Source: Eukaryota sp. TZLM1-RC
Lineage: Eukaryota > Protista > Metamonada: BaSk clade
DNA: 64,000 bases
Direction of reading: 5' to 3'
Assembly (NCBI GenBank): GCA_040285825.1
Contig: JAUPSS010000002.1
Coordinates: 2,852,001-2,916,000, forward strand
This document shows, piece after piece, positions 25,673 to 29,100 of this stretch (position 1 is the stretch's first letter; every line of letters starts with the position of its first letter). Made by a program: the position numbers and the translations under genes. The notes beneath the pieces were generated by a model. It ran no database searches. It had not been told where the DNA came from and worked only from the letters and a program-made list of their open reading frames with translations.

Positions 25673-25794
25673 TAGTTGTTTGTATCCATGTATTGCCTTC
25701 GGGCGCTGTGATCCTGAAAAGGAAACCGTATAAGGGAATGGAGGAATGCTACTTGATGTATGCATTTCCGATGAAATTCACAGACTGACTCTCA
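25660..25794 (+). ncRNA. Candidate Fanzor omegaRNA scaffold overlapping the ORF 3' end
   Basis: Hairpins GCC-TTCG-GGC, TCCT-GAAA-AGGA and GGAATGC..GCATTTCC; enclosing stem CTGTGA/TCACAG; basal TGAGAG/CTCTCA. Shares GTGAGA, TAGYTGTTT..ATC.A.GTATT.CC, GGYGCTG and GAAATTC with the other two loci. Boundaries inferred. Confidence 0.65.
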
Positions 25795-26190
25795 GAACTC
25801 AATGAATATAGAATTGTTATTATAAATTGATTGTCTTTTTTCCAATTCTCCAGAAACATATTTCTCATATTTGAAGAATGGAGGTGATGTGAAAACCATA
25901 TCAAATTTTTCAGTTGTAGTAAATTCTTCAATTGGAAGGTCATATAGTGTTGCGTCACCTCCAATAAATTCAATCATTCTTTTATAATTTGGATGTAAAT
26001 TTGAATTTGGATCACAACCAGTATATTTTTTTCCTGTCAATAATGTTCCAATTAAACGGTCACCCCATCCACTCGAAAAATCAAAAACACACTTTACATC
26101 TGGGAATAATTTTAAAAATGAAATTGTTTTTGTTATGAAAAAACTATTAGTTTCTTTTGTCATTTTCCTTAATCTCTCTTCATTATAACT
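25795..26190 (-). pseudogene. Truncated amino-DNA methyltransferase fragment (N4-C/N6-A type), virus/phage-like
   Basis: VFDFSSGWGDRLIG (SAM binding), GCDPN, FDMVFTSPPFF..EKY (catalytic motif IV). No real start. The frame stops at the Fanzor 3' region. Confidence 0.8.
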
Positions 26191-26193
26191 ATT

Positions 26194-29100
26194 ATGCTGT
26201 CTCACCTATTCATATTCCTTCAATTGTCCTGTCTTTTTGTTTTGTCTGAAATTCAGTTTCAACCTTCAGATCCATCTCAACGTTTCTTTTCTTGGGATGA
26301 TGATTCAATATGGTCTCCACGAAGCCCTTCACGTACGTCAACAGTCACAATCAATCCTACTTTTTCTGACACTACAATCACAATTCCAGATGATATCACA
26401 CTCCGTTCGCTCTACACAGAAGACGTTACCTTGCTCATTGACACCAATCATGTACAAATCGAAGACACACTTTCCACATCAGATACAACTATCACTGGGA
26501 TTACTACAGAAGCAGCTATCGCAGCCAATAGTTTTGAACTTGAATCTGCTACTACTTTAAAAGATATTAAATTGGTAATTAATTCAGAAGCAAAGTTAAT
26601 TGAAGGAGATTTATTTTGTACAAATTCAAAAATATTTCTACAACACTCATCTACATTAATAATGGATACGACCTCTGGTTCTACAGAGGAATCAATCTTA
26701 TCGTGGGGAGACGGTGGACATGGGAGGACAGGAACCGAAGATGATACAGAACATGCACCACTATCACTTGTCACTACGGTCACTCTCGACGCTATTGCAT
26801 CTGGAGCTGAACATTCATTAGGTATAACAAGATCAGGGAGGCTCTATTCATGGGGTAACAACCAAAACGGAGAGTTGGGTGTAGAGTTGGGGTTTGAGGA
26901 ACAATGGGATGTTCCCATTGAGGTTGACTCAATACAAAATGTAGTGCAGATATCCGCAGGTAACGGATGGAGTATGGCAAGGCTCGTCAACGGAGAAGTC
27001 TACACATGGGGACGAGGAGAAAATGGAAGATTGGGGTTGGGGGACAAGCAAGGTAGGACAGAGCCAGAGTTGTTAGAGGGGATACTCGCAAAGGACGTGA
27101 GCGCTGGTCATGAGCATGGACTCGCAGTACTGATAAATGGTACAGTGGTAGCATGGGGTAACAACCACATAGGACAACTGGGCATTGGCAAGGAAGGGGG
27201 AGAAGAGCTTTCACCAGTGCATGTCAAAGGAGAATTTGTTGCCTCACCCCAATTTGTGATTGGTTGCATCCATTTTTCCCTGTTCATATGCTCCCACCAG
27301 TATCTCTATACAACCGGGCAGAACAATGAAGGGAGTGACAGGGGACAGTTGTGTTTGGGGGAAGCTTCTCCTAGGCAAAAACCGACATTAATCTATAATT
27401 ATGATAAATATAATGTAATTCAAGCTAGTTGTGGTCAAGGTTATACAATATTTCTTGATTCGGAAGGTCACGTTTACAGCTGCGGTCGAATTCTTGCCAG
27501 AAGTGGCAGTTGGCATTCCCCAGGAAGAATCACAGCATTATCCAATGTTAGAAGTATCATTGCAGGAAGACACGAAGCTTTTGCCTTACTTGACTCTAAT
27601 ATTGTCTATTCATGGACAGAATTTGAAGACCCTTCTCCCTTTGAAGATGTAAATACGAGAAAAATGTTTGGAAAATATGCTCATTTTTTCGCCTTTCCTA
27701 TTTTATCACCATCTATCACCAGCAGTGATAGTACTTCTTTTCTGGAAATTGAAGGTCTTTTGGAAAATAGATCTGAGTTGGAATTTACTATTGATATCAA
27801 TGTTTTGATTTATCAGAATGGAGTTTTGTTTGCTAGTAATGAGGGTTTTTTGTTGTCAAAATCAGTTAAAAATGAAGGGTCGATTCGGTTAAATAGTGGT
27901 CTAGAAATAGATTTTCAAGGAGATTTATTGCTGAATGGTGGTACAATAGAGTCTGATGGCGATATAACCTTCTTGCAGGGAAATCGTATTAGTGGTTTTG
28001 GTGTTATTGAGTCCACTTTAATCAACTATGGAAGCTTGGTTCCTTTAGGTAAAATGGAAATTCAAAATGATTTATCATTAAGAGAATACTCTCGCTTAGT
28101 TTTCACAAATGAATTTGGTGATCAGAACTCCTTGTTAATCGGAGGTGATTTAGAATGTGAAGGGGTGATATCTATTGATTACACCTTCTATGAATTAACT
28201 GAAATACGGACTTTTGAATTAATTAACTATCAACTTAAATCTGGATTATTTAATTCTATAATCATTGCATGTGAATCTTTTTTTATTTTTGAGTTGGGCT
28301 CAAATGACTTTACTATAACTATTATTAACGAAATTATTCCAGATTTAAACCATATTTCTTTTATTTCTCCTTCTGGAACAAATGAAGATTGTTGTGGTAC
28401 TGCCTCAGTTCCTTGTTTGTCACTTAGTAAAATAATCGAAAGAATGGGTTATTATGGGGTTGTTTATTTTGAAAAAGGTGAATATAATGGAGTTAATTTT
28501 GACGTTGATTTGATTGATCTAAATTACACTCTAATCGGTAACTCTGGTGGCTCATTTACAACCATCTCTCACTATTTAAATATTGAGTATACTACCTTAT
28601 CATTCGAAAATTTCAATCTAACTATCCGCAATGTTGGCAGTTTTCTAAATACTTTAACGTCTGACATCAGTTTCATTAATGTGGATGTTTTATTAGAAAA
28701 TGCTGAGTTAGTTGCAGCATTTGACTCCAATATTAGTATTAGTAATTCTGATTTTACTATCATTAATGAAAATCAAAAAAAGTTTTTAGATCTTGAATTT
28801 GGTGAATTACTTATTGAACATTCATCATTACGTGGCGGAACAGGACTAATTAAATCAGATTTTTCTAATATAAAAATAGAATATTCTATTTTTGAAGATC
28901 AATTTGATGTATTTTCTCTATCAAATTCGTCTCTCACTGTTAATGAGGTCTATTTTGAAGATTTCCAGCAGAATTTGGCTTCAAGTTCAGCTAAGACTAT
29001 AATCTTTTCGGTGGATTCAACTTTATTTCTTTATAATTTAAATTTTACTAATGTCAATACGACCTTAATTAGGGCAACAACAACAGAAATTTATCTTGAA

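What the first reader, a model, noticed from the sequence alone, without database searches (positions are those of the whole stretch)
25780..26195. Fanzor 3' end abuts a virus-like DNA methyltransferase fragment: possible virus-derived guide
Seen: directly after the structured region (basal stem ends ...CTCTCA at 25794) lies ~400 bp of very AT-rich DNA. On the opposite strand it encodes an internal piece of an SPP(F/Y)-type amino-MTase (DFSSGWGDRL, DPN, TSPPFF), cut at both ends, with its frame stopping at the Fanzor boundary. Established: Fanzor/TnpB guides come from DNA immediately 3' of the scaffold, and Fanzors and orphan MTases of this kind occur in giant viruses and phages. Inference: either the element came in from a virus with its flank, or the locus holds a captured viral fragment that programs the nuclease against a viral gene, a CRISPR-like memory in a eukaryote. 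The exact scaffold/guide junction (25783 to ~25806) is uncertain.
Basis: partly seen in the sequence, partly recalled or inferred. Interest (0 to 1): 0.85.

Follow-up and report, generated by a model that had tools for sequence, protein, structure and literature searches.

The report
Fanzor transposon beside giant-virus gene scrap
A multi-copy jumping gene encoding a Fanzor nuclease sits next to a 400-base scrap of a DNA methyltransferase gene that likely came from a giant virus; its guide RNA is predicted to copy only about 15-20 bases at the broken edge of that scrap and likely marks the element's own empty insertion site, so this is probably not a CRISPR-like antiviral memory.

Summary
The methyltransferase fragment is real: an open frame on the minus strand (25795-26205) covering positions 112-237 of a 321-position family profile, with both ends missing and nearest labelled relatives in giant-virus genomes (best identity 48.5% over 100+ residues). 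The Fanzor1 gene is real too, one of a 17-member young family in a Skoliomonas-type protist. Other copies share the element from 22941 to 25784-25788 and then have different flanks. A 10-bp direct repeat (22930-22939 and 25783-25792) brackets the Fanzor alone, not Fanzor plus fragment. A 14-21-nt guide would cover this repeat, the fragment's stop codon and its last few codons, 85 or more bases from the nearest conserved motif. No viral target was found; exact matches ran at control level. Best reading: an ordinary Fanzor insertion beside an existing viral scrap, with a guide aimed at the empty site. Arrival of the element from a virus with its flank is not excluded (about 0.12), selected antiviral memory about 0.05. 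The assembly could not be searched, only five right-end flanks were seen, and no independent contig bridges the junction.

The parts
22930..22939 (+). Left copy of a 10-bp direct repeat (GACTGACTCT), candidate target-site duplication; one extra T (22940) separates it from the element's shared left end
   Evidence: Longest exact repeat between the two end zones; 44 of 200000 random placements give as much
22941..25786 (+). Fanzor1-bearing mobile element, about 2.85 kb, no transposase gene, no terminal inverted repeat; right end uncertain by a few bases (25782-25788)
   Evidence: Contigs of runs X1 and X2 begin to match at 22941, X1 with a different upstream flank; right ends at 25788, 25786, 25784; longest inverted match between ends 6-7 nt
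23680..25672 (+). Fanzor1 gene, 663 aa in intact sister copies; here split by a one-base frameshift near 24212 (true mutation or homopolymer error, not resolved). RuvC D, E, D at about 24974, 25451, 25577; zinc finger between
   Evidence: 98-99% identical to P0075; cluster of 17; an X1 contig lacks one base at 24212; motif positions; fold nearest SpuFz, PpFz, GtFz
25673..25786 (+). Predicted omega-RNA scaffold, closed by the stem 25706-25711 / 25778-25783
   Evidence: 25700-25786 folds at z -2.4, 4 of 300 shuffles as good; 25673-25786 only z -1.2; GAAATTC near the end is shared with two related elements in the window; no Rfam match; expression not tested
25783..25792 (+). Right copy of the 10-bp repeat; its first four bases are also shared by two other copies, so the duplicated part may be only the last six
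25787..25813 (+). Range that would hold a 14-21-nt guide (start 25787 if the scaffold ends with the element, 25793 if the duplication is part of the scaffold)
   Evidence: Inference from the mapped end, native guide lengths 14, 21 and 11 nt (PMC10432273) and scaffold inclusion of the duplication (PMC10711439 section 27)
25795..26187 (-). Internal fragment of a giant-virus-type N4/N6 amino-methyltransferase gene; motif I at 26053-26082, DPN at 26005-26013, TSPPFF at 25873-25890; stop at 25792-25794
   Evidence: nearest labelled relative a GVMAG contig
26194..34749 (+). Host 2851-aa RCC1-repeat protein gene whose start codon lies about 7 bases from the far end of the fragment
   Evidence: Pfam RCC1; this exact protein is in the collection as a single-member cluster

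Best explanation
A Fanzor1-carrying mobile element of a young multi-copy host family lies at 22941-25786 between two copies of a 10-base repeat, and it most likely inserted at the edge of an already broken methyltransferase gene fragment that likely came from a giant virus. Shown: the element's ends, the repeat, the fragment and its truncation, different flanks at other copies. Inferred: the repeat is a target-site duplication; the RNA from the element's 3' end runs 14-21 bases into the flank; that guide matches the empty allele of this very site, which Fanzor would cut so that repair copies the element back (restorative homing). The viral origin of the flank is incidental: every copy gets whatever lies downstream as its guide. 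This copy's own protein is frameshifted in the assembly, so its RNA would need protein from a sister copy unless the extra base is an assembly error.
For: Family of 17 proteins at 90% or more, the 13 named among 15 listed all from one protist assembly, with 36-49% relatives in two related assemblies; no relative in viral contigs (0 of 39 candidate stretches). Shared ends and distinct flanks. 10-bp repeat around the element, 44 of 200000 by chance; no repeat of 6 or more bases between the left junction and the far end of the fragment. The left flank does not continue the gene: read through with X at the break, it ranks 10365 of 18116 positions. A guide starting at 25783-25794 includes the stop codon, which 192 of 198 homologues do not have there. 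Guide-length matches in IMG/VR: 14 for a 17-mer, 10 for a 16-mer, none in a methyltransferase gene; a host control 16-mer gave 6. Variable-length duplications with extra bases at the 5' junction are described for Fanzor1 CRe elements (PMC3627910 section 8); restorative homing is the reviewed role (PMC13565253 passages).
Against: The element end lies within about 10-25 bases of the fragment's broken end, a coincidence that chance insertion explains only through many copies and many windows scanned. The fragment has no stop or frameshift in 131 codons and 18% GC at third positions against 27-39% in six host genes, so it may be recent. The repeat is not flush: one extra base on the left, and its first four bases look like part of the element. 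No empty allele was seen. No contig bridges 25789-26250 at 96% identity, so the junction rests on the assembly alone. Only five right-end flanks were seen, two of them as 30 bases; four of the five cannot be called host or viral with certainty except the one that is an inverted-repeat element.
Confidence: 0.75

Rival explanations
1. The element first inserted into the methyltransferase gene of a giant virus (or of a larger endogenous viral element) and was then copied to this site together with 400 bases of downstream flank, as rolling-circle elements with imprecise right ends can do. The target motif would then sit next to the guide match in the viral gene by construction, so the RNA could direct cutting of element-free virus.
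For: Intact frame and low third-position GC; the fragment abuts the element; AGACTGA occurs at both ends of the element (22944 and 25782), like the terminal direct repeats of Replitrons, whose right ends carry parental flank (PMC10288648 section 9 part 1); Fanzor elements are shared between a giant virus and its algal host (10.1101/2024.09.03.611062 passages).
Against: The 10-bp repeat brackets the element alone and nothing brackets element plus fragment; the in-frame stop sits at the junction; the carried flanks described for Replitrons are 'short'; no viral relative of this Fanzor family was found although it is spread over three host assemblies.
Confidence: 0.12
2. After the element inserted, a piece of viral DNA was patched into a break just behind its right end and kept because the new guide turns Fanzor against the virus: a CRISPR-like memory.
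For: Adjacency; giant-virus-like origin of the fragment; the fragment fills nearly the whole space up to the next host start codon, as a late insertion would.
Against: No array, no repeat-spacer layout and no acquisition gene in the window; 393 bases where under 21 are used; the first guide bases are the duplication and a stop codon, not conserved viral coding sequence; a randomly captured piece would lie next to the required target motif only rarely; no target found; 1 of 5 flanks seen is virus-like.
Confidence: 0.05
3. The fragment is not viral debris but part of a host gene or host transposon, or the junction is an assembly chimera with DNA of a co-cultured virus.
For: A full-length eukaryotic homologue exists in Capsaspora (P0035); some eukaryotic retrotransposons carry adenine methyltransferases (10.64898/2026.05.21.726589 passages, a different NPP-type family); no contig bridges the junction.
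Against: No close copy among proteins of 241-2000 aa (best 48.5% over 100+ residues) or 75-240 aa (0 of 5 candidates) in a collection that holds this assembly's predicted proteins; one hit only in the window; depth beyond 25789 does not look like a high-copy repeat; a flanking duplication is not expected from a chimera.
Confidence: 0.08

Closest known systems
Fanzor1 nucleases SpuFz1 (8GKH, 9CEU), PpFz1 (9CF0) and GtFz1 (9CER); PMC10432273
   Same: Top seven Foldseek matches (E 1e-12 to 3e-8); D-E-D triad with the glutamate 9 residues before the zinc finger; conserved non-coding 3' end followed by copy-specific flank
   Different: Only 10-14% identity and TM 0.34-0.38; no 30-nt inverted repeats as in Spu loci; a Skoliomonas-type family that the literature searches did not return
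CRe-1/2/3 Fanzor1 elements of Chlamydomonas (PMC3627910 section 8) and Replitron-1 insertions (PMC10288648 section 9)
   Same: No terminal inverted repeats; duplication of 7-19 bp behind a T-rich stretch, sometimes with extra bases at the 5' junction; short direct repeat at both termini (Replitron)
   Different: No Helitron or Replitron transposase or end homology was tested or found here; one insertion with both junctions is too few to assign a superfamily
Giant-virus (GVMAG) N4/N6 amino-methyltransferases of the GWGDRL / TSPP(F/Y)F family, e.g. locus L001
   Same: Motif order I-II-IV, 43% identity to L001 over residues 5-127; Pfam N6_N4_Mtase on L001 and P0129, PHROG 498 'DNA methyltransferase' weakly on the fragment
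   Different: About 110 N-terminal and 85 C-terminal profile positions missing; no DNA-level relative except short motif stretches (58 bases at 88% at best)
CRISPR spacer acquisition / adaptive immunity (recalled, no call)
   Same: A foreign-derived sequence next to an RNA scaffold of a Cas12-related nuclease
   Different: No array, no acquisition genes, single site, guide is by default the insertion flank, no matching target found

Membership tests
Fanzor1 | RuvC D-E-D with the glutamate moved close to the zinc finger | tested here: met
   AVDPN, GDEYMTS, NCC..CPRC, SRD located; E is 9 residues before the first cysteine (review passage gives 6 for Fanzor, about 50 for TnpB)
Fanzor1 | Fold closer to Fanzor1 than to TnpB, Fanzor2 or Cas12 | tested here: met
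   Model pLDDT 69.7 from 10 sequences; ranks 1-7 are SpuFz, PpFz, GtFz; TnpB rank 50
Fanzor1 | Multi-copy element with conserved 3' non-coding end and variable flank | tested here: met
Fanzor1 | Expressed omega-RNA and RNA-guided DNA cleavage | not testable with these tools
   No RNA data could be laid; no assay
Giant-virus-type amino-methyltransferase family | Motifs I (GWGD), II (DPN), IV (SPPF/Y) | tested here: met
   Invariant columns D42 G46 W47 G48 D49 R50 G63 D65 S107 P108 P109 in 21 sequences
Giant-virus-type amino-methyltransferase family | Complete gene with N-terminal region and C-terminal strands | tested here: not met
   Profile positions 112-237 of 321 only; no other piece in the window
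Giant-virus-type amino-methyltransferase family | Nearest relatives lie in giant-virus genomes | tested here: inconclusive
   All 7 GVMAG loci are among the 10 nearest of 79 viral loci and L001 is nearest of 177, but node support is 0.46-0.86, most close proteins carry no label, and the distance is large
CRISPR-like adaptive memory | Repeat-spacer array or acquisition machinery | tested here: not met
   None among 19 window proteins scanned or in the repeat search of 22500-26400
CRISPR-like adaptive memory | Guide matches a viral protospacer beside a target motif | tested here: inconclusive
   No match above control in IMG/VR or phage records; the source virus is in none of the collections searched
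CRISPR-like adaptive memory | Viral sequence enriched in the flanks of the family | tested here: inconclusive
   1 of 5 right-end flanks virus-like; 2 are from a sister family in the window, 2 are 30-base tails
MuDR or hAT (DDE) Fanzor carriers | Terminal inverted repeats with a flush 8-10-bp duplication | tested here: not met
   Longest inverted match between ends 6-7 nt; duplication off by one base
Helitron2 or Replitron (HUH) carriers | HUH transposase partner with matching ends | not tested
   The assembly could not be searched

The most novel reading that the evidence does not exclude
A host Fanzor element jumped into the methyltransferase gene of a giant virus of this anaerobic protist and came back with viral flank, or captured viral DNA at its right end, leaving a chromosomal guide RNA that aims the host's Fanzor proteins at that virus: heritable, sequence-specific antiviral memory in a eukaryote made from a transposon end.
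Probability: 0.08. Interest if true: 0.85.

Novelty: new member of a known kind. Interest (0 to 1): 0.27.

Why it matters
As it most likely is: a modest find. It records a young Fanzor1 family in a Skoliomonas-type metamonad (no paper among the 8 listed mentions Fanzor) and a trace of a giant virus in a lineage whose genome paper does not use the word virus in its main text (PMC11316075). It also shows how a flank-derived guide can look like a spacer. If the novel case held, it would be RNA-guided DNA immunity in a eukaryote; the listings showed no paper claiming that for Fanzor (20 of 168 and 20 of 361 papers listed, titles and abstract starts only; supplements not seen). The family's 17 or more copies make the idea testable in one genome-wide count of flanks.

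Tried and rejected
1) That the element split the methyltransferase gene and the missing C-terminal part lies on its left. A candidate at 23575 (minus) ranked 13 of 2757, fell to 1243 of 18116 with a larger profile, and lies inside the element. The true left flank ranked 10365 of 18116. 2) A duplication around element plus fragment: none of 6 or more bases. 3) An intron that would splice the element out of an antisense transcript: the stop precedes the only good donor-like site, and no downstream exon was found (sequence). 4) Viral targets of the guide: 14 and 10 exact hits, control 6; the longest (20 bases, L112) lies in a 173-aa phage frame that looks HNH-like by eye. 5) More copies of the element: no match in metagenome contigs, one distant Fanzor1 (L094), none in viral contigs. 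6) No RNA holder listed; no cover of 25814-26250 in three low-depth runs and no joint showing an empty site: none of these is evidence either way. 7) Rfam: no match. 8) Fold of 25620-25830 is no better than shuffles (z -0.30). 9) Earlier findings of this scan: none near or alike; eight listed for 'Fanzor' concern other genomes. 10) The two 30-base flanks of X1 and X2 have no exact match in viral contigs, a weak test.

Full report
Observation. The minus strand of 25792-26205 is an open frame of 137 codons with DFSSGWGDRL, DPN and TSPPFF; the other five frames carry 2-18 stops. A word-based search returned 50 proteins at E 0.001 or better among 214 candidates of 241-2000 aa and 0 of 5 among 75-240 aa. 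The exhaustive search found 2671, of which the best 150 were listed at 31-53% identity. Over alignments of 100 residues or more, the best of 198 homologues is 48.5% identical. A profile of those 198 aligns fragment residues 7-132 (26187-25810) to positions 112-237 of 321, and finds no other piece in the 64 kb. The fragment is therefore real, internal and alone.

Origin of the fragment. In 185,579 prokaryotic genomes only 13 of 32 candidate stretches did, all in metagenome bins; the two best, which I examined, carry a tubulin-tyrosine ligase neighbour and an mRNA-cap methyltransferase fusion, which I read as misbinned giant-virus contigs. Annotated phages gave 3 records at 31-33%. In a FastTree of 178 sequences (79 loci, the 50 proteins, 48 of the 148 new proteins, and the fragment) the nearest sequence is GVMAG locus L001 and all 7 GVMAG loci are among the 10 nearest viral loci; support around the fragment is only 0.46-0.86. 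A giant-virus source is likely, not proven; the source virus itself is unsampled.

The element. The nuclease gene (23680-25672) is 98-99% identical to P0075, in a cluster of 17 proteins; the 13 named among 15 listed come from one assembly, Eukaryota sp. TZLM1-RC, and the two unnamed are this window's own halves. TZLM1 is a name used in the Skoliomonas description (PMC11603281, search listing only). Relatives at 35-41% occur in two related assemblies. The catalytic D, E and D and the zinc finger are present and the predicted fold matches Fanzor1 structures first. The window's copy has one extra base near 24212 relative to an X1 contig. The rest of the window is ordinary host chromosome (RuvBL, SMC, HMG-CoA reductase, kinase) with transposon debris; it is not a large viral insertion.

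Boundaries. Laying contigs of three runs (two samples, one study) shows raised depth from 22941 to about 25786. X1 and X2 (one sample) begin to match at 22941, X1 with another upstream flank. At the right, X1 diverges after 25788, X2 after 25786 and X3 stops matching after 25784; X1 and X2 continue with different sequences. Two related elements in the window (46160-48050 and 15566-15790, minus) share GAAATTC and stop resembling this one a few bases later. The stable basal stem closes at 25783. The boundary is thus 25784-25788, not 25794. The same ten bases stand at 22930-22939 and 25783-25792; 44 of 200000 random placements gave such a repeat, and nothing of 6 or more bases links the left junction with the far end of the fragment. 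I saw the repeat by eye before testing it. It is not flush (one extra T on the left; the first four bases are shared by other copies), so the duplication may be six bases with four bases of shared sequence. Duplications of 7-19 bases with extra 5' bases are known from the Fanzor1 CRe elements (PMC3627910 section 8).

What the guide would be. Native Fanzor guides were 14, 21 and 11 bases (PMC10432273 passages); RNAs ran about 15 bases past the duplication, which was predicted to be part of the scaffold, in insect-virus Fanzor1s (PMC10711439 section 27). The guide here would lie within 25787-25813. That covers the repeat, the stop codon at 25792-25794 and at most the last six or seven codons, where only 34 of 198 homologues still align. 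TSPPFF begins 87 bases from the element end and motif I 267. A guide that starts at or before 25794 contains a stop that 192 of 198 homologues lack at that place, so it could not match an intact gene of this family perfectly. Exact searches of IMG/VR gave 14 hits for the 17-mer from 25793 and 10 for the 16-mer from 25787, none in a methyltransferase gene, against 6 for a control 16-mer from the host gene; phage records gave none by blastn.

Other flanks. Five right-end flanks were seen: this one; a T-rich low-complexity tail (X1); an unclassified tail (X2); an unclassified single-copy 118-aa frame behind the element at 46160 (no Pfam, no usable Atlas hit); and a 540-bp inverted-repeat element behind the remnant at 15566. 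One of five is virus-like. The sample is small, mixes two families, and cannot exclude enrichment.

Mechanism. Shown: ends, repeat, truncation, copy-specific flanks. From established work: Fanzor RNAs take their guide from the 3' flank, and the reviewed role is cutting the empty allele to restore the element (PMC13565253 passages; shown there for TnpB and IscB, inferred for Fanzor). Inferred: the scrap was there first and the element landed at its edge, so the guide points at this site's own empty form. Against this stand the closeness of the two breakpoints, the unbroken frame and low third-position GC of the fragment (18% against 27-39%), and the lack of an independent contig across the junction. 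These keep open a joint arrival from a virus (terminal AGACTGA repeat; imprecise right ends in Replitrons, PMC10288648 section 9 part 1 of 2) and, less likely, capture at a break.

Novelty and verdict. New member of known kinds: a Fanzor1 element and a small endogenous viral fragment. None of the 8 papers listed for Fanzor with Skoliomonas, metamonad or TZLM1 mentions Fanzor; two searches listed no paper on Fanzor as antiviral memory (top 20 of 168 and of 361 seen as listings). Supplementary Fanzor catalogues were not read and could list these proteins. Papers seen: passages of PMC10711439, PMC10530073, PMC3627910, PMC10432273, PMC13565253, PMC10288648, PMC11316075, 10.1101/2024.09.03.611062 and 10.64898/2026.05.21.726589, plus the three sections named above. 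Interest 0.27; novel case 0.08 probable, 0.85 if true.

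Noticed in passing
window 46160-48050 (-) and 15566-15790 (-): Two more Fanzor remnants of a sister family (P0052 cluster, 18 members). The first has stops and lacks the zinc finger and last RuvC motif but keeps its 3' non-coding end; the second is a 3' remnant cut off by a non-LTR-type repeat. Their 3' ends are 84% alike over 177 bases.
   Followed up: partly
window 22944-22950 and 25782-25788: AGACTGA stands just inside the left end and at the right end of the element, a terminal direct repeat reminiscent of Replitrons or Cryptons; the element has no inverted repeats and its transposase is unknown.
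   Followed up: partly
window 26187-26196: The viral fragment ends about 7 bases before the start codon of a 2851-aa RCC1-repeat gene, so it occupies the place of that gene's promoter.
   Followed up: no
window 48390-48737 (+): An RRM frame that looks by eye like the small cap-binding subunit CBP20 and seems to lack its C-terminal end lies just outside the second Fanzor's 5' end; possibly another broken gene beside a Fanzor element.
   Followed up: partly
window 15024-15564: A 540-bp element with long imperfect inverted ends and 30-base subterminal repeats abuts the right end of the third Fanzor remnant.
   Followed up: partly
window 23592-23674: Contigs of X1 and X2 match from 23592, 23622 or 23643 onward with other upstream sequence, so several Fanzor families share the stretch just before the start codon but differ further left.
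   Followed up: no
window 25972-26110: Short partial matches with long loose ends at 25972, 25981-26014 and 26079 in runs X1-X3 at the 85% setting, gone at 96%; probably chance in AT-rich DNA, not resolved.
   Followed up: no
L095:1-6345 and L096:1-6372: Two contigs titled as Saccharimonadales bins carry tubulin-tyrosine ligase and mRNA-cap methyltransferase genes, probably misbinned giant-virus DNA.
   Followed up: partly
protein P0073: A predicted host protein joins a Fanzor piece to a region that looks by eye like a Mutator-type transposase tail; Pfam gave no hit.
   Followed up: partly
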